IMG/VR virus record: IMGVR_UViG_3300014204_000170
Location: 9,717-73,716 of that record
DNA from: a virus
Strand: one strand, 5' to 3'
Length of the DNA stretch: 64,000 nt
A model generated the notes under the pieces. The model had not been told where the DNA came from, ran no database searches, and worked only from the letters and a program-made list of their open reading frames with translations. Shown piece by piece: positions 20,093 through 62,690 of the stretch. The translations under genes were made by a program, and so were the position numbers. Each line of letters opens with the position of its first letter. The stretch's first letter is position 1.

Positions 20093-20121
20093 TTGACAAG
20101 TTTCATGTCAAGGAATATACT
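20093..20121 (+). promoter_or_regulatory. sigma70-like promoter (TTGACA-17-TATACT) upstream of the tRNA array
   Basis: TTGACA at 20093-20098, 17-nt spacer, TATACT at 20116-20121. Part of the recurring ACTTGACAAGT family. Confidence 0.6.
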
Positions 20122-20136
20122 AGATATAATGTTAAT

Positions 20137-20215
20137 GCGCTGAATACTCAATGGGTGAGTAGCGGTCTGTAAAATCGTGCCTTCGGGAAAGTTAGTTCGA
20201 TTCTAACTCAGCGCA
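20137..20215 (+). tRNA. tRNA-Tyr (anticodon GTA), long variable arm
   Basis: Acceptor GCGCTGA/TCAGCGC, D-stem ACTC/GAGT, anticodon loop CTGTAAA, variable hairpin, T-arm GTTAG-TTCGATT-CTAAC. Confidence 0.65.
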
Positions 20216-20402
20216 CAATGGCGGTTGAATGAAAATAATAGCCCTCGGCTCACTACCGACTAGGCAGCCAACGAGATTCAACCATAGTGTAATGAACTAT
20301 AAAAAAAGATTTCCCAAAAAAAGAAAAGTAAATAGAAAATTATTATTAGGTAGGTGGGGATGTAAGAAGTCGATGAAGATATATTTTAGTTATAAAAAAC
20401 AC

Positions 20403-20431
20403 TTGACAAGAGTTTATGATTAGTATAAGAT
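20403..20431 (+). promoter_or_regulatory. sigma70-like promoter (TTGACA-17-TAAGAT)
   Basis: ACTTGACAAG motif at 20401-20410, about 100 nt upstream of the HAD hydrolase gene. Confidence 0.45.
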
Positions 20432-20535
20432 GTATGTAGGGATTAGCCCAATTATTAATTAACAATAAATTTTATGAGAAAAAATGTAGTAACATCGTCT
20501 ACTGTTTAATAATATTATTAGAATTAAACGAAAAA

Positions 20536-21216
20536 ATGAAACACTTTATATTCGATATGGACAATACAATAACCGACTCGAGACAAGAAATGAAGCCAGA
20601 AATGTTTAAAGCTTTGTGTTCTTTAGAGTGCGAAGATGTTTCTGTAATAAGTGGTGCAAAAAAAGAACAAATTGAAAAACAGCTTGGTAAATTTCAAACT
20701 GATTTTCTTCTAGCCCAGTCAGGGAACCATACAAAGTTTTGGAAGAACGAACTCACCAAAGAAGATAAGGAAGAAGTCTTAAATCATATATCCATATTAA
20801 GGACATCATATCCAGAATACTTCTTAGATGAAACAGATTTACTCCAAGACCGCGGCTCACAAATGGCGTTTAGTTTTCTTGGGCATAATGCTAATGTTGA
20901 TGATAAGAAAGCTTTTGATATACAAGGAGATTTTAGAAAAGAAGTTTTAAATACAGTGCCGTTCAATAGCAATAATGTAGAAGTCACAGTAGCAGGAACC
21001 ACATGTCTGGATTACACGAGAAAGGATGGAACAAAAGGGAGGAACATTGAAAAATTAATAAAAGAATTAAATTGGAACAAAGAAGATTGTATATACTTCG
21101 GGGATAGGTTTAAACCAGGACAAAATGACGAGTCTGTAATAGGAGTCATTGAAACTGTAGAAGTAAAAAACCCTGAGGATCTAATTGAGAAACTAAAACC
21201 GTATCAGGTAAAATAA
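20536..21216 (+). CDS. HAD-superfamily hydrolase
   Basis: N-terminal FIFDMDNTITD (DxDxT motif I), 226 aa. Confidence 0.55.
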   Translation: MKHFIFDMDNTITDSRQEMKPEMFKALCSLECEDVSVISGAKKEQIEKQLGKFQTDFLLAQSGNHTKFWKNELTKEDKEEVLNHISILRTSYPEYFLDETDLLQDRGSQMAFSFLGHNANVDDKKAFDIQGDFRKEVLNTVPFNSNNVEVTVAGTTCLDYTRKDGTKGRNIEKLIKELNWNKEDCIYFGDRFKPGQNDESVIGVIETVEVKNPEDLIEKLKPYQVK

Positions 21217-21273
21217 AAAATAAATAGTTTTCACTTAGAGCATATACGTCAAGTATATGTTTTCTTTTTATAT

Positions 21274-59660: not shown

Positions 59661-60560
59661 TTGGTTGTTATAAGCGCTAATATAGAAGGACTAAAACAAA
59701 ATTATAATGATATGGCAAAATATAGAACAGTCAATACAAGGTTTTGGACAGATAATTTTATATCTGACCTAAACCCACTAGATAGATATTTATTCTTGTA
59801 TTTTATAACAAATGATCACACAAATATTATTGGAATTTATGAAGTTCCACTAAGAACTGTTTCATTTGAAACTGGCATAGAAGTTGATATGTTAAAGAAG
59901 ATGTTAGTACGCCTAAATGGAAAGGTTTTCTATGTTGATGGGTGGGTATTTGTTAAAAATTTTAAGAAATATCAAGCATATAGCAACCCAAGTGTTAAAA
60001 AAGGCATGGAAGTAGCATTAAATGATGTACCCGCCAAAATACTCAATAAAATCAATGGTTTGAGACACACTGTGACAGGACCCGACACACTGTCAGAGGA
60101 CCCGAGTAATATAGATATAGATATAGATATAGATTCTAATATAGATATAGACGTGCCCCCACTCAAGACCCCTACTGAAATAGCTAATAAGAAACACAAA
60201 GAAGAAAGCTTTGAAATTTTCTACGCAGCTTATCCTAGGAAGAAAGACAGGATAACTGCCAAAAGACGCTTTATGAATTTAAGCACAAAGCTATATCCTA
60301 AAATCATGGAAGCCTTAGAGTTAAACAAAAGATCTAAACAATGGCAAGATAAGGAATTTATTCCATTTCCATCTACTTGGTTAAATCAAAAAAGATGGGA
60401 AGATGAAGTTGAGGTTAGTAATATGGACCCAATGGAAGTAGAAGCGAGAGCCTTACTTAAACAATTTCCTTCCGACAATGATACGACAGCACAATTCCGT
60501 TTCTCTAAAAAGTACGGAAATCAAAATTTATTAAGATTTAAACACCTATTTAATTTATAA
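59661..60560 (+). CDS. replisome-organizer / replication-initiator-like protein
   Basis: N-terminal RFWTDNFISDLNPLDRYLFLYFITN resembles the phage replisome-organizer N-domain. Contains a DIDIDIDSNIDID repeat. Lies upstream of the primase-helicase. Confidence 0.35.
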   Translation: MVVISANIEGLKQNYNDMAKYRTVNTRFWTDNFISDLNPLDRYLFLYFITNDHTNIIGIYEVPLRTVSFETGIEVDMLKKMLVRLNGKVFYVDGWVFVKNFKKYQAYSNPSVKKGMEVALNDVPAKILNKINGLRHTVTGPDTLSEDPSNIDIDIDIDSNIDIDVPPLKTPTEIANKKHKEESFEIFYAAYPRKKDRITAKRRFMNLSTKLYPKIMEALELNKRSKQWQDKEFIPFPSTWLNQKRWEDEVEVSNMDPMEVEARALLKQFPSDNDTTAQFRFSKKYGNQNLLRFKHLFNL

Positions 60561-60561
60561 T

Positions 60562-62409
60562 ATGAAAAAACAAATATATGTGTTAATTGATGATAAAAAG
60601 AAACATGACGGAGCAAAAACATACTACGAATACAACGAAGAACTTTTCCAGGGAATGAACAAAGAAGGGTGGGGTGTATACTTCGCAGTTAATGACTTTG
60701 GTGAGAATCCAAGACAAGATCAATACTGCCAAAAACTACGTTACGTGTATGGTGATTTAGACATCGCAAAATCAGGTGATAATCAAACACGAGAAGAGAA
60801 AGATAGAAAGAAACAAATAGTTATAGATGCTTTAATTAAAAAATGTCCTCCTTCATTAATAATTGGAACCTCAAATGGCATTCAACCTCTTTGGAAGTTA
60901 AAAGATGGAGATCCAAGTAGAAAAGCAGAATATGTGAATGCAATTAAGGGGGTTATTGAGTGGAGCAAGGATTATGGGTGTAAGGCTGATAAGATTTACG
61001 ATATGGCTAGAATTTTAAGAAATCCTGGGTTTTTGCATATGAAGGAAGAGCCATATATGTGCAAGGTTATTTATACATCTGATAAAAAATATACTATAGC
61101 GGAACTTATAGAAAATTTTCCATATGTTGATGATACACCAGTTTATGTTGCACCTACGGTTGAGGCACACTTAAGTCCTATTGATATAGCAATGAATAAA
61201 ATAGATATAAAGGAAATTGTAGTTAATGCATATCAGCAAACTGGTAGAACAGCAGAATTTGATAGACAAGGACGATTGATTCTTGATGGTAGATTAACTG
61301 GTACATTCCAAGGTAAAAAAGATAGTAGGGATTATATTTCTTCCTCTTCCCATGAACCAATAAAAGGGAATCGAATAACTGTAGTTGCAGATATTCTTGG
61401 AATAAATAACAAAGAAGCTAGAAAGTGGATCTTAAAAGAATACAACATAAACTGGCAACAGGAAACAGCTAAACAAGTTGTATTTAAACCAACAATTCCA
61501 ACCAAGGATTATAAACTTAGATATACATGGGGAACACAAAATCTAGATGATAATTTCGCGATTATAAAAAGAAAAAGTTTTATAGTGTTAGCCGCGAAGC
61601 GTGGTAGTGGTAAAACAACATTCGCTTTTGACATGGCTTGTAAAAACGCGAGACTTGGTCATAGGGTATTATTCATATCACTTGAAATGGAGAAGGACCA
61701 CATCAAAGAAGACTTCGCTCGAAGACGTGCAGGTATTACGATTCCAGAAGAACGTGATTATAAAATTCCAAACTCAAAAAAGGTTTACTATGAAGAGAAA
61801 GTAAAAGAGATTGACAATATTGAAACATTGTTGTTCTCTGGTATACAACGAGGTAGTGATATTTCTTGGGATGGGATAAAACTATTAATTGCTGAACATA
61901 AAGATTTAGATTTAGTTTTTATTGATAACCTTGATTTGATTGATAAAAATGAAGGAGAAAAAGATGATTGGGATAAGCAAAAAAGAATTGTTAAAAGTAT
62001 TATGAATTTTACTTCTGATCAACAGGTTCCAATCGTTCTTATTCACCATTACAGAAAATCACCAGCAGGACAAAAGGGTGGAGGAATGGATGAGTTGTCT
62101 GGTAGTGGAAAAATTGCAGATAGTGCGGATTACATTGTTAAAATAAGTAGAAGTAGTGACACGGAAGCTTTATATCCTGAGAATTTACGTTCTAGTGTTT
62201 ATCTTCAAAAAGCTAGAGGATACAATGAATCAATGCAAGATGTTTTCTTTATTAAGGGAACTTTTGTTGATGACGCACCTGCTGAAAACAATCCAGCAAT
62301 AATTACACTAAATAAAGCATTTCCTGATAAAGGGGTCGAAATTAGAAAACCTTATAAAGAAGATAGTGATAGAGAAGAAGACATAACTGAAACCACACTA
62401 CCTTTTTAA
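60562..62409 (+). CDS. primase / DnaB-like replicative helicase fusion
   Basis: The C-terminal half has RecA/DnaB-type motifs: VLAAKRGSGKTTFAFDMA (Walker A), LFISLEME and VFIDNLDL (Walker B). Confidence 0.55.
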   Translation: MKKQIYVLIDDKKKHDGAKTYYEYNEELFQGMNKEGWGVYFAVNDFGENPRQDQYCQKLRYVYGDLDIAKSGDNQTREEKDRKKQIVIDALIKKCPPSLIIGTSNGIQPLWKLKDGDPSRKAEYVNAIKGVIEWSKDYGCKADKIYDMARILRNPGFLHMKEEPYMCKVIYTSDKKYTIAELIENFPYVDDTPVYVAPTVEAHLSPIDIAMNKIDIKEIVVNAYQQTGRTAEFDRQGRLILDGRLTGTFQGKKDSRDYISSSSHEPIKGNRITVVADILGINNKEARKWILKEYNINWQQETAKQVVFKPTIPTKDYKLRYTWGTQNLDDNFAIIKRKSFIVLAAKRGSGKTTFAFDMACKNARLGHRVLFISLEMEKDHIKEDFARRRAGITIPEERDYKIPNSKKVYYEEKVKEIDNIETLLFSGIQRGSDISWDGIKLLIAEHKDLDLVFIDNLDLIDKNEGEKDDWDKQKRIVKSIMNFTSDQQVPIVLIHHYRKSPAGQKGGGMDELSGSGKIADSADYIVKISRSSDTEALYPENLRSSVYLQKARGYNESMQDVFFIKGTFVDDAPAENNPAIITLNKAFPDKGVEIRKPYKEDSDREEDITETTLPF

Positions 62410-62414
62410 AATAT

Positions 62415-62654
62415 ATGAACGAATCAAAAATTAGAGAATTGTTCGAAGAAATAGATCCCGAAGGAAGAATTCCAGAAGGGAAAATAGATGAATTAATTTC
62501 AGTAATGAAAGACCAAGAAGAACATCCCCTTAAGGATGGTGACAAGGTTGGAGACGCAACTTTTAACACAATACATGAAGAAATTAAAAATGAACCAGAC
62601 TGGAGAAAACGTGCATCATTAGCAGCAAAAATTATATCTATGGGCTTAGAGTAA
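62415..62654 (+). CDS. hypothetical acidic protein
   Basis: 79-aa ORF. Confidence 0.35.
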   Translation: MNESKIRELFEEIDPEGRIPEGKIDELISVMKDQEEHPLKDGDKVGDATFNTIHEEIKNEPDWRKRASLAAKIISMGLE

Positions 62655-62661
62655 CTTATTA

Positions 62662-62690
62662 CTTGACAAGTTGAATCGATAGGTATATAC
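62662..62690 (+). promoter_or_regulatory. consensus promoter TTGACA-17-TATACT
   Basis: ACTTGACAAGT, spacer AGTTGAATCGATAGGTA, TATACT at 62685-62690. Confidence 0.6.

What the first reader, a model, noticed from the sequence alone, without database searches (positions are those of the whole stretch)
20093..62690. Highly conserved ~30-bp promoter family: ACTTGACAAGT-N-AAATCGAA-N-GGTA-TATACT
Seven copies were found at 20093, 20403, 47460(-), 50834(-), 52625(-), 57683(-) and 62662. All have a perfect TTGACA embedded in a near-palindromic ACTTGACAAGT, and five have an almost invariant 17-nt spacer (AGT(A/T)AAATCGAA(A/T)(A/G)GGTA) before TATACT. Conservation well beyond the -35 and -10 boxes implies an additional phage factor or sigma-associated regulator binds the spacer. 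These are probably the phage early/middle promoters and they define operon starts.
Basis: seen in the sequence. Interest (0 to 1): 0.6.

Follow-up and report, generated by a model that had tools for sequence, protein, structure and literature searches.

The report
Conserved early promoters of uncultured phage
The repeated ~30-bp element is real and is almost certainly a set of strong, ordinary-type bacterial promoters that switch on the early genes and tRNAs of an uncultured ~110-kb phage; such promoter families are well known in lytic phages, so the finding is sound but not surprising.

Summary
A ninth, overlapping divergent promoter sits at 20111(-). Only four copies, not five, share the AATCGA..GGTATAYACTTA spacer; a fifth lies 1.5 kb past the window end.

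All sites have TTGACA, a 16-18 nt spacer and TATACT/TATAAT/TAAGAT. They lie between genes (two overlap the end of the upstream ORF) and point at tRNA, replication, chaperonin and metabolic genes. None lies in the structural module.

About 100 promoters of the same design occur in 45 loci of related metagenomic phages, several at orthologous positions. Clade-wide they share the extended -35 box, purines at -19 to -13 and A at +1.

Spacers are more alike within a genome than between genomes, and each relative has its own version. The AATCGA block shifts by 1 nt between copies. Common descent or gene conversion, plus contacts by RNA polymerase itself, explains the extra conservation. A spacer-binding factor is not required and remains untested.

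Verdict: a sigma-70-type early promoter family, a new member of a known kind.

Side finding: a covariation-supported ~85-nt RNA with no Rfam match lies just downstream of one family promoter.

The parts
20091..20121 (+). Promoter P1. Extended -35 box ACTTGACAAGT (20091-20101), 17-nt spacer, -10 TATACT (20116-20121). The predicted start near 20128 is 9 nt before tRNA-Tyr (20137).
20083..20111 (-). Promoter P1'. It overlaps P1 and fires divergently: TTGACA (20111-20106), 17 nt, TATACT (20088-20083). It faces the methyltransferase gene (18976-19665) across a leader of about 410 nt.
20401..20431 (+). Promoter P2. ACTTGACAAGA, 17 nt, variant -10 TAAGAT (20426-20431). It lies upstream of the HAD hydrolase gene (20536-21216) and the tRNA array. 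TAAGAT recurs as a -10 in 9 promoters of relatives.
47460..47490 (-). Promoter P3 (spacer subfamily). It starts 10 nt after the GroEL stop codon and drives a structured RNA, a 170-aa gene and GroES. Orthologous promoters are present in L162, L163 and L165.
50834..50865 (-). Promoter P4. ACTTGACAAGT, 18 nt, TATAAT (12 of 12 consensus). It lies upstream of the mini-MerR gene, the SNF2 helicase and GroEL. The same arrangement is found in 14 of 24 relatives.
52625..52655 (-). Promoter P5 (spacer subfamily). It lies upstream of the HAD_SAK_2 and metallophosphatase genes, inside the ~8 kb block (50.9-59.2 kb) that is missing from L163, L164 and L080.
57683..57713 (-). Promoter P6 (spacer subfamily; -10 TACACT). 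It overlaps the last codons of a LAGLIDADG homing-endonuclease gene (57701-58366) and lies upstream of the Band_7 gene.
59156..59185 (-). Promoter P7. ACTTGATAAGT, 16 nt, TATAAT. It sits in the divergent region opposite the DUF5659 gene and is orthologous to L162_4740 and L165_4964.
62661..62691 (+). Promoter P8 (spacer subfamily). It lies upstream of gene 62723-63538 and is orthologous to L162_311 and L165_242.
47350..47433 (-). Conserved ~85-nt three-way-junction RNA, predicted to be transcribed from P3. It is not part of the promoter but is tied to it: in 10 of 11 distinct occurrences it sits directly behind a family promoter.
50582..50794 (-). 70-aa MerR-type HTH gene, the first gene behind P4. 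It is the only candidate DNA-binding regulator seen near the family, and its role has not been tested.

Best explanation
These are strong promoters for the host's primary (sigma-70/sigma-A type) RNA polymerase holoenzyme. An uncultured, circularly assembled ~110-kb phage uses them to transcribe its early and middle genes straight after infection. Those genes include the tRNA array, replication and nucleotide or SAM metabolism genes, GroEL/GroES, and an Acb2/Tad1-like gene just outside the window.

Proposed mechanism: sigma region 4 reads a perfect TTGACA set in a clade-specific extended box (A)CTTGACAAGT. Sigma region 2 reads TATA(C/A)T 16-17 bp downstream. Transcription starts at a conserved A 7 nt after the -10.

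The conservation beyond the hexamers has three sources.
(1) Clade-wide preferences inside the polymerase footprint: C at -36, AGT at -29 to -27, A at -19, G at -16/-15 and A at +1. These probably tune polymerase binding.
(2) Shared descent or gene conversion among copies within one genome. This gives each phage its own near-invariant spacer and spreads copies along with inserted gene cassettes.
(3) An AT-rich leader motif (ATTATTAATTA) that precedes many start codons in this genome whether or not a family promoter is present.

Shown: the sequence anatomy, the statistics, the intergenic position and orientation, orthologous conservation, and within-genome homogenisation. Inferred: recognition by host sigma-70-type polymerase, early timing, the start site and promoter strength.
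For: - The exact 11-mer occurs 6 times against 0.03 expected.
- The family sites are the top-scoring sigma-70 matches in 44-64 kb, at 10-12 of 12.
- Seven of nine sites are fully intergenic in an 86.5% coding window, and all are co-oriented with the downstream gene.
- P1 would start 9 nt before tRNA-Tyr.
- There are no copies in the structural block (1-19.6 kb) or the 24-43 kb block.
- Promoters sit at orthologous positions in L162, L163, L164, L165 and L080, whose helicases are 56-76% identical to the window's.
- 101 unique promoters were found in 45 clade loci. Spacers are 16 nt (50) or 17 nt (49). T-12, A-11 and T-7 were required by the selection. A-19 is at 74%, G-15 at 72% and A+1 at 73%.
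- When sites are selected on the hexamers alone, 92 of 102 have C-36, 59 have AC and 54 have AGT.
- Of 97 promoters, 3% lie inside long ORFs against 64% of random positions. 67% have a co-oriented ORF start 10-160 nt downstream against 15%.
- Spacer identity is 0.55 within a genome and 0.435 between genomes, p<=0.001. Examples: L299 has 5 copies of AATAAGTATAATGGAA, and L336 has 4 copies with TTGCCA.
- The AATCGA block shifts by 1 nt between copy pairs while the 17-nt spacing is kept.
- P5 and P6 lie in a block absent from three relatives.
- No sigma-factor or RNA-polymerase domain was found in the genes checked across about 84 kb of the 109.7-kb contig.
- The Bacteroidota-type TAnnTTTG element is neither enriched nor placed upstream of genes, at 4 of 85.
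- Literature: T4 early promoters show extra consensus attributed to optimised host polymerase contacts (PMC2988021). Sigma-70 R451 senses the spacer near -18 (PMC3130263).
Against: - There are no transcript data, and the host is unknown. No cultured relative was found and the AhcY search gave no host signal.
- 74 of 85 genes lack a Shine-Dalgarno sequence. That is typical of Bacteroidota, whose primary sigma does not use TTGACA/TATAAT (PMC6847099). If the host were of that kind, a phage-supplied specificity factor would be needed.
- About 26 kb of the genome was not seen, and a divergent sigma could escape Pfam.
- The flanks of the -35 box form a near-perfect 5-1-5 palindrome. My rough estimate is about 1 chance in 64 that three conserved flank positions happen to be complementary. 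The best explanation leaves this unexplained.
- The clade-wide purine pattern at -19 to -13 is not a known sigma-70 element and is not the TGn extended -10.
Confidence: 0.77

Rival explanations
1. One reading: the promoters are co-recognised by an extra sequence-specific factor that binds the spacer and/or the palindromic ACTTGACAAGT box. The factor could be phage-encoded, for example the conserved 70-aa MerR-type HTH protein, or host-encoded. It would give coordinated activation or shut-off of the whole regulon. The genome-specific spacers would reflect co-evolution of each phage's factor with its own sites.
For: - The box is a 5-1-5 palindrome, nearly invariant across 101 promoters and still prevalent when sites are selected on hexamers alone.
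- The spacer shows clade-wide A-19 and G-15 plus genome-specific versions.
- A MerR-type HTH gene is the first gene behind one family promoter in the window and in 14 of 24 relatives, with the box about 60 nt upstream of its start codon. That layout would suit autoregulation.
Against: - Both hexamers and the spacing are already at or near consensus, so no activator is needed.
- MerR-type control works on 19-20 bp spacers with the operator centred in the spacer. Here the spacers are 16-18 bp and the palindrome sits on the -35.
- Half-sites 6 bp apart are too close for a typical HTH dimer (general knowledge).
- The AATCGA block is out of register by 1 nt between copies.
- The spacer is absent from four of the window's own family promoters.
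- The variants GCTTGACAAGT, TCTTGACAAGT and ..AAGA break the symmetry on one side only.
Confidence: 0.13
2. The sites are read by a phage-encoded sigma factor or by a phage-modified polymerase, that is, a phage-specific promoter class that merely resembles the sigma-70 consensus. This would be needed if the host's own primary sigma does not use TTGACA/TATAAT.
For: - The genome is nearly free of Shine-Dalgarno sequences, as in Bacteroidota and their phages (PMC6847099).
- The GroEL has phage homologues (about 41% identity for the Bacteroides phages listed) in Flavobacterium, Cellulophaga and Bacteroides phages.
- The capsid belongs to the SU10_MCP family. From memory, the cultured members of that family (phiEco32-like phages) encode their own sigma.
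- 26 kb of the genome was not inspected.
- The very high information content of the box is typical of phage-specific promoters.
Against: - No sigma or polymerase domain appears in the genes checked across about 84 kb.
- The motif is the textbook sigma-70 consensus in both hexamers and in spacing.
- Other, non-family sigma-70-like promoters with TGn extended -10 or TTGCGT-17-TATAAT sit in other intergenic regions.
- Early genes must be transcribed before any phage protein is made, unless a factor is injected with the DNA.
Confidence: 0.07
3. The repeats are mainly recombination or mobility elements, like the PeSL cassettes of T4-type phages. On this view their sequence identity is maintained for, or by, homologous exchange of gene cassettes, and promoter activity is secondary.
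For: - Near-identical copies flank a variable region. The block 50.9-59.2 kb carries P5 and P6, is missing from L163, L164 and L080, and is shorter in L162.
- P6 abuts a homing-endonuclease gene.
- Spacers are homogenised within genomes.
- The phage encodes RecA, RuvC-like and SbcCD-like functions.
- PeSL precedent: PMC2839356 and PMC4122927.
Against: - The defining upstream stem-loop is absent. Folding z-scores of the 70 nt upstream run from -1.6 to +1.5, and the promoters abut the preceding stop codons.
- Copies at orthologous positions are conserved across genomes that are only 56-76% identical in protein. This argues that selection acts on promoter function itself.
- Recombination is better seen as a consequence of the repeats that explains homogenisation than as their function.
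Confidence: 0.03

Closest known systems
Early promoters of lytic coliphages read by host sigma-70 (T4 Pe; also T7 A1-A3, T5 and lambda PL as recalled from memory)
   Same: Multiple copies per genome. Excellent -35 and -10 hexamers at optimal spacing. Placed before early genes and phage tRNAs. Extra consensus outside the hexamers that is attributed to optimised contacts with host polymerase (PMC2988021).
   Different: No TGn extended -10 in the window's copies and no clear A/T-tract UP element. The extra consensus here is a palindromic extension of the -35 box plus purines at -19 to -13. Host and transcripts are unknown.
PeSL (promoter-early stem-loop) cassettes of RB49/phi1 and other T4-type phages
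   Same: Repeated strong sigma-70-like promoters concentrated in a plastic early region. Associated with insertions and deletions of accessory genes between related genomes. Sequence identity among copies that could support homologous exchange (PMC2839356, PMC4122927).
   Different: The adjacent terminator stem-loop that defines a PeSL is absent. Many copies sit at conserved orthologous positions next to core genes such as GroEL and the helicase, not next to ORFans.
MerR-family regulated promoters
   Same: A MerR-type HTH gene is encoded directly behind one family promoter. A palindrome lies within the promoter.
   Different: Spacers are 16-18 bp, not 19-20 bp. The palindrome lies over the -35 and not in the spacer centre. 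The protein is only 70 aa. No binding evidence exists.
Spacer sensing by sigma-70 (R451 at position -18)
   Same: Sequence preference inside the spacer at about -19 to -15 without any accessory protein (PMC3130263).
   Different: The preferred bases here (A-19, G-16/-15) were derived only from conservation. Whether the unknown host's sigma reads them is untested.

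Membership tests
Sigma-70/sigma-A (group 1 sigma) -35/-10 promoter | -35 hexamer close to TTGACA | tested here: met
   TTGACA is exact in 8 of 9 window sites and TTGATA in one. In the clade set, pre-selected to within one mismatch, TTGACA is exact in about 88 of 101, with TTGCCA, TTGTCA and TTGATA as the main variants.
Sigma-70/sigma-A (group 1 sigma) -35/-10 promoter | -10 hexamer close to TATAAT, with T-12, A-11 and T-7 | tested here: met
   Window sites carry TATACT x5, TACACT x1, TATAAT x2 and TAAGAT x1. In the clade, where T-12, A-11 and T-7 were required by the selection, TATAAT occurs 42 times, TATACT 30 and TAAGAT 9.
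Sigma-70/sigma-A (group 1 sigma) -35/-10 promoter | Hexamer spacing of 17 +/- 1 bp | tested here: met
   Window sites: 16 nt (1), 17 nt (7), 18 nt (1). Clade: 16 nt (50), 17 nt (49), 18 nt (2).
Sigma-70/sigma-A (group 1 sigma) -35/-10 promoter | Located upstream of, and co-oriented with, transcription units | tested here: met
   P1 would start 9 nt before tRNA-Tyr.
Sigma-70/sigma-A (group 1 sigma) -35/-10 promoter | Transcription starts 6-9 nt downstream of the -10; open complex formed by holoenzyme | not testable with these tools
   Only indirect support: a conserved A 7 nt after the -10 in 73% of 101 promoters.
Phage early promoter class (temporal) | Active immediately after infection without phage protein synthesis | not testable with these tools
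   Inferred from the gene content behind the sites (tRNAs, replication, metabolism, chaperonin, anti-defence) and from their absence in the structural module.
PeSL cassette (T4-type phages) | Strong sigma-70-like promoter repeated in a plastic region | tested here: met
PeSL cassette (T4-type phages) | Adjacent upstream stem-loop terminator (often GGGG...CCCC) | tested here: not met
   The 70 nt upstream of the 8 window sites folded (P1' was not) give energies of -1.4 to -10.4 kcal/mol, with z-scores from -1.6 to +1.5. The promoters abut the upstream stop codons.
MerR-type regulated promoter | Over-long (19-20 bp) spacer containing a centred palindromic operator | tested here: not met
   Spacers are 16-18 bp, and the palindrome covers the -35 box.
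T4 MotA/AsiA-type middle promoter | -35 element replaced by an activator box centred at -30 | tested here: not met
   A perfect TTGACA is present at -35. The definition is taken from PMC2988021.
Bacteroidota primary-sigma promoter | -7 element TAnnTTTG with a -33 TTTG | tested here: not met
   TAnnTTTG occurs 99 times against 94.6 expected, and is found within 120 nt upstream of only 4 of 85 genes. The consensus is taken from PMC6847099.
Extended -10 (TGn) promoter | TG at -15/-14 | tested here: not met
   'TG_before_second: no' for all family sites in 44-64 kb. Some relatives, such as L080, L034 and L164_3579, do have TGC.

The most novel reading that the evidence does not exclude
The palindromic extended -35 box and the genome-specific spacers form a private recognition code. 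A phage-encoded factor, co-evolving with its own promoters, would read them and switch the whole early regulon on or off. One candidate is the conserved mini-MerR protein made from the first gene of one of these operons; another is an unseen sigma or anti-sigma. This would be especially interesting if the host is an SD-less lineage whose own sigma cannot read TTGACA/TATAAT.
Probability: 0.13. Interest if true: 0.55.

Novelty: new member of a known kind. Interest (0 to 1): 0.3.

Why it matters
The family gives a usable transcription map for an uncultured phage clade. The clade is about 100-110 kb, rich in tRNAs, encodes GroEL, and is found in groundwater, Antarctic-lake and sediment metagenomes. 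The map shows where early operons start and which accessory cassettes brought their own promoter.

The promoters also constrain the host. The phage relies on canonical TTGACA/TATAAT promoters yet almost never uses Shine-Dalgarno sequences.

The clade offers a natural series of about 100 consensus promoters with genome-specific spacers. These could be used to study spacer effects on promoter strength, or as parts for synthetic biology.

None of this changes current understanding of phage transcription. Conserved early promoter sets are textbook.

The linked, covariation-supported small RNA is the more original lead.

Tried and rejected
- Spacer-specific DNA patterns in IMG/VR found nothing. The exact spacer is private to this genome.
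- A hexamer-plus-box pattern in IMG/VR hit more than 120 mostly unrelated phages. This shows the design is not unique to the clade, but the pattern forced the flanks, so it says nothing about enrichment.
- Single-protein locus searches with the helicase and GroEL found no close relatives. Alignment-based searches were needed.
- No cultured relative or host was found through near-DNA, TerL, GroEL, MCP or helicase searches of INPHARED.
- The genome-contig scan with AhcY gave 51-57% identity spread over many phyla, so no host signal.
- A literature search for the 11-mer returned only irrelevant hits.
- Counting hexamer-only promoter matches is not significant.
- Depletion of TATACT in the genome is weak: 44 against 56 +/- 8. 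My first block-shuffle estimate overstated it, so I dropped the argument.
- PHROGs gave nothing useful for the small early proteins.
- Rfam found only tRNAs.
- PeSL membership was rejected for lack of stem-loops.
- Four look-ups of window proteins found no record, probably because the gene calls differ, and one returned only a short unrelated contig.
- The roughly 5-kb spacing of the four subfamily copies (5165, 5058 and 4948 bp) was considered and dismissed as coincidence. The fifth copy is 2.8 kb further on, and relatives show no such spacing.

Full report
**What the window is.** The window is 64 kb of a 109.7-kb circularly assembled metagenomic contig (ENA ERZ27247350 k141_2421641). GC content is about 30%. 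It encodes terminase, portal and an SU10-type major capsid protein on the minus strand at 1-19.6 kb. A tRNA array lies at 20.1-24.0 kb, with 22 tRNAs by ARAGORN and 21 by Rfam. A plus-strand block of ligase-, RtcB- and amidotransferase-like genes occupies 24-43 kb. An early or replication region at 43-64 kb carries GroEL/GroES, an SNF2 helicase, a primase-helicase, MetK, AhcY and others. No cultured phage is close at the DNA level, nor by TerL, MCP, GroEL or helicase. The host is unknown.

**Checking the observation.**
- ACTTGACAAGT occurs exactly at 20091+, 47490-, 50865-, 52655-, 57713- and 62661+. That is six copies against 0.03 expected in dinucleotide-preserving shuffles.
- Allowing one mismatch adds 20401+ (..AGA) and 59185- (TTGATA), giving 14 both-strand hits against 1.5 expected.
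- Each site is followed after 16-18 nt by TATACT, TACACT, TATAAT or TAAGAT.
The two form a fully overlapping divergent pair at the junction of the minus-strand and plus-strand modules.
- The 'almost invariant spacer' is present in four copies, not five. AATCGA-N2-3-GGTATAYACTTA matches only 47490-, 52655-, 57713- and 62661+. A fifth copy, ACTTGACAAGTAATAGTGATGGGTATATACTTAAGG, lies about 1.5 kb beyond the window end, upstream of an Acb2/Tad1-like gene.
- In these copies the conservation runs from -38 to about +20 and stops upstream of the box.
- The two hexamers alone are not enriched in this AT-rich DNA: 8 sites with at least 11 of 12 matches against 4.8 +/- 2.1. The statistical weight rests on the extended box, the position and the orientation.

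**Position and targets.** The window is 86.5% coding. Seven of the nine sites are wholly intergenic. The other two overlap only the last codons of the upstream ORF, and one of those ORFs is a LAGLIDADG homing-endonuclease gene. Every site points at the next gene.
- P1 would start 9 nt before tRNA-Tyr.
- P2 precedes a HAD hydrolase gene and the tRNA array.
- P3 follows GroEL and precedes a 170-aa gene and GroES.
- P4 precedes a 70-aa MerR-type HTH gene, the SNF2 helicase and GroEL.
- P5 precedes an RNA-repair-type HAD gene and a phosphoesterase gene.
- P6 precedes a Band_7 gene, then AhcY and MetK.
- P7 precedes a nucleotidyl-transferase gene.
- P8 precedes a 271-aa gene; RecA lies further downstream, past another gene.

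These assignments rest. No copy lies in the structural module or in the 24-43 kb block. This fits an early or middle promoter class, but the timing is inferred.

**Relatives.** Capsid-based, helicase-based and DUF5659-based searches recovered many related metagenomic contigs. Judging by sample names such as Hainich groundwater and by Ga identifiers, they come from groundwater, Antarctic lakes and sediments.
- In the five relatives with the early region (helicase 56-76% identical), promoters of the same design sit at orthologous places. These places are: after GroEL; before the MerR-like gene and helicase; in the divergent gap next to the DUF5659 gene; after the 62415-62654 homologue; and after the 65013-65510 homologue.
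- Across 45 loci I collected 101 unique promoters. The box is ACTTGACAAGT, the spacer is 16 nt (50) or 17 nt (49), and the -10 is TATAAT (42), TATACT (30) or TAAGAT (9). A at -19 is 74%, G at -15 is 72%, and A at the predicted +1 is 73%.
- That set was picked using the box. I therefore repeated the count selecting only on exact TTGACA-N16-17-TATA[AC]T. Of 102 such sites, 92 have C at -36, 59 have AC upstream and 54 have AGT downstream.
- Consensus sites occur about once per 7.6 kb in the clade. In loci of unrelated phages with distant helicases they occur about once per 90 kb.
- Of 97 clade promoters, 3% lie inside long ORFs against 64% of random positions. 67% have a co-oriented ORF start 10-160 nt downstream against 15%.

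The family is therefore a conserved functional feature of the clade, not a quirk of this genome.

**What explains conservation beyond the hexamers.** Three things emerge.

First, some positions are constrained clade-wide: the flanks of the -35, A-19, G-16/-15 and A+1. All lie inside the polymerase footprint. Sigma-70 is known to sense spacer sequence near -18 through R451 (PMC3130263). T4 early promoters likewise show 'additional regions of consensus' interpreted as optimised polymerase contacts (PMC2988021).

Second, the specific AATCGA spacer is not conserved in relatives. Each genome has its own homogenised version. L299 has five promoters ending AATAAG-TATAAT-GGAA. L336 has four with TTGCCA and TGGG(T/A)G-TATAAT. 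L287/L162 has four with (A/T)AGGAG-TATACT. L331 has three with TAAGAT. Spacer identity is 0.55 within genomes against 0.435 between genomes (p<=0.001).
- In the window, the AATCGA block is displaced by 1 nt relative to both hexamers between the pairs 47490/62661 and 52655/57713, with a compensating change that keeps the spacing at 17 nt. This is what descent with indels under a spacing constraint predicts. It is awkward for a factor bound in fixed register.
- P5 and P6 lie in an ~8-kb block (50.9-59.2 kb) that is missing from L163, L164 and L080 and is much shorter in L162. At least two of the near-identical copies therefore came with, or followed, cassette insertions.

Third, the conserved stretch after the -10 (TTAAGTTATTATTAATTAAA) contains ATTATTAATTA, the most frequent 11-mer of the window. 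It has 11 exact copies; by my reading of the coordinates against the ORF list, nine lie 9-17 nt upstream of co-oriented start codons, most without any family promoter. That part of the 'promoter conservation' therefore belongs to a separate leader or initiation signal.

An extra spacer-binding factor is therefore not required. It is not excluded either. The box is a 5-1-5 palindrome that the simple model does not explain. A MerR-type HTH gene is the first gene behind one family promoter, here and in 14 of 24 relatives. Against a MerR-like mechanism:
- the spacers are 16-18 bp, not 19-20 bp;
- the palindrome lies on the -35, not in the spacer centre;
- the half-sites are only 6 bp apart;
- natural variants break the symmetry on one side only.

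**Host polymerase or phage sigma?** No sigma or RNA-polymerase domain appears among the genes checked across about 84 kb of the contig. Other, non-family sigma-70-like promoters occur in other gaps, for example TGTGTTATAAT before the DUF5659 gene and TTGCGT-17-TATAAT before the homing endonuclease.

One real tension remains. 74 of 85 genes lack a Shine-Dalgarno sequence, and their upstream regions are A-rich. That is the pattern described for Bacteroidetes, whose primary sigma uses TTTG/TAnnTTTG and does not read E. coli promoters (PMC6847099). However, TAnnTTTG is neither enriched nor placed upstream of genes here. I could not resolve the host, so I leave 7% on a phage-supplied specificity factor.

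**Comparison with known systems.** The closest analogues are the host-sigma-70 early promoters of lytic phages and the PeSL cassettes of T4-type phages. The element works like the former. It shares with PeSLs the repetition, the association with cassette gain and loss, and the potential for homologous exchange (PMC2839356, PMC4122927). It fails the defining PeSL feature, an adjacent stem-loop terminator. It is not a MotA-type, MerR-type, extended -10 or Bacteroidota-type promoter; see the membership table.

**Verdict.** This is a real, clade-wide family of strong sigma-70-type early promoters with a palindromic extended -35 box and genome-specific, homogenised spacers. I rate it a new member of a known kind, with interest 0.3.

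**Side finding.** An ~85-nt three-way-junction RNA lies directly behind the post-GroEL promoter (window 47350-47433, minus strand).
- A covariance model built from four orthologues found 14 instances, 11 of them distinct.
- 94% of cells are paired against 69% in shuffles.
- 18 of 22 pairs show compensatory changes.
- The covariation score is 0.75 against at most 0.22 for slid registers.
- One caveat: the alignment was fitted to the model.
- There is no Rfam match.
- In 10 of 11 cases the motif follows a family promoter within about 0-45 nt of the predicted start. It is followed either by a protein gene or by what looks by eye like the 5' end of a tRNA gene, not confirmed with ARAGORN. This suggests an independent small RNA and not a gene-specific leader.

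This RNA is the more original lead from this window.

Noticed in passing
window 47350-47433 (-); orthologues L162 13101-13184, L165 13076-13158, L163 2764-2848, L293 3086-3171, L299 16054-16132, L302 4002-4084, L306 15374-15455, L315 15057-15142, L304 1839-1923, L305 1222-1313: A conserved ~85-nt three-way-junction RNA. It has a 12-bp outer stem and two hairpins, the second mostly with a GAAA/AGAAA-type loop, plus a conserved junction YUGUUAAA and a conserved AAUA in loop 2. It has 11 distinct sequences, 94% of cells paired, 18 of 22 pairs with compensatory changes, and no Rfam match. It sits directly behind a family promoter in 10 of 11 cases. It is followed by a protein gene or by what looks like a tRNA, so it is probably a stand-alone phage small RNA. 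The genome also encodes RtcB and RNA-repair-type HAD proteins.
   Followed up: yes
window 20083-20121: Two consensus promoters fully overlap on opposite strands (AGTATATC-ACTTGACAAGTTTCATGTCAAGG-AATATACT). Each -35 lies in the other's spacer, so polymerase can occupy only one at a time. This is a possible switch point between the tRNA/early module and the minus-strand module. The minus-strand promoter has a leader of about 410 nt with no ORF of 50 aa or more, no Rfam hit, and no homologue in the fetched loci.
   Followed up: partly
window, e.g. 989-999(-), 4115-4125(-), 19676-19686(-), 40136-40146(+), 45981-45991(-), 47336-47346(-), 49161-49171(-), 52608-52618(-), 53028-53038(-): ATTATTAATTA is the most frequent 11-mer, with 11 exact copies. 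With one mismatch there are 39 hits against 17 expected. Nine exact copies lie 9-17 nt upstream of co-oriented start codons. An identical 28-mer, TTATTATTAATTATGAATAAAAAAATTT, precedes genes 443-973 and 3308-4099. It may be an SD-independent translation-initiation signal or a late-promoter element; this is unresolved.
   Followed up: partly
whole window; exception 24044-24894: 74 of 85 genes lack any Shine-Dalgarno-like sequence and have A-rich upstream regions. Four consecutive small genes at 24044-24894 carry AGGAGG-like (two exact), AAGGAGG or AAGGAA sites. The neighbourhood (22-26 kb) has higher GC than the AT-rich block that follows. This suggests a horizontally acquired module, or genes tuned differently.
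   Followed up: partly
window 57701-58366 (-): A LAGLIDADG homing-endonuclease gene sits free-standing between the nucleotidyl-transferase and Band_7 genes. Promoter P6 overlaps its 3' end. The surrounding 50.9-59.2 kb block is variable among relatives.
   Followed up: partly
window 52662-56028 (-), 28-41 kb (+), 43146-45967 (-): An unusual metabolic load. It includes MetK, AhcY, a dATP/dGTP diphosphohydrolase N-terminal domain protein, an AAA_28 kinase-like protein, two or three COOH-NH2 ligases, RtcB, a class-I glutamine amidotransferase, an NDP-sugar epimerase/dehydratase and a nucleotidyl-transferase. Together these suggest DNA or RNA hypermodification and RNA-repair functions.
   Followed up: no
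L198 12185-12373 (about 2.2 kb beyond the window end): An Acb2/Tad1-hairpin family gene (an anti-CBASS/anti-Thoeris sponge family) is the first gene behind the fifth spacer-subfamily promoter.
   Followed up: no
window 12583-13271, 24895-25182, 26185-27321, 27553-27824, 28200-28471, 34193-34771, 54137-54307: Several long (170-1100 nt) intergenic regions, some GC-richer than their surroundings, have no ORF and no Rfam hit. Part of 12583-13271 is conserved in relative L001 (87% over 83 nt). These are candidates for further non-coding RNAs or degraded mobile elements.
   Followed up: no
L336 (Ga0172381_10000078) 475-, 2706-, 5324-, 14817+: In this 102-kb relative, all four detected family promoters carry TTGCCA in place of TTGACA, a change at the centre base of the palindrome. 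They also share a TGGG(T/A)G-TATAAT spacer end. This is a clear case of genome-wide concerted change in a promoter family.
   Followed up: partly
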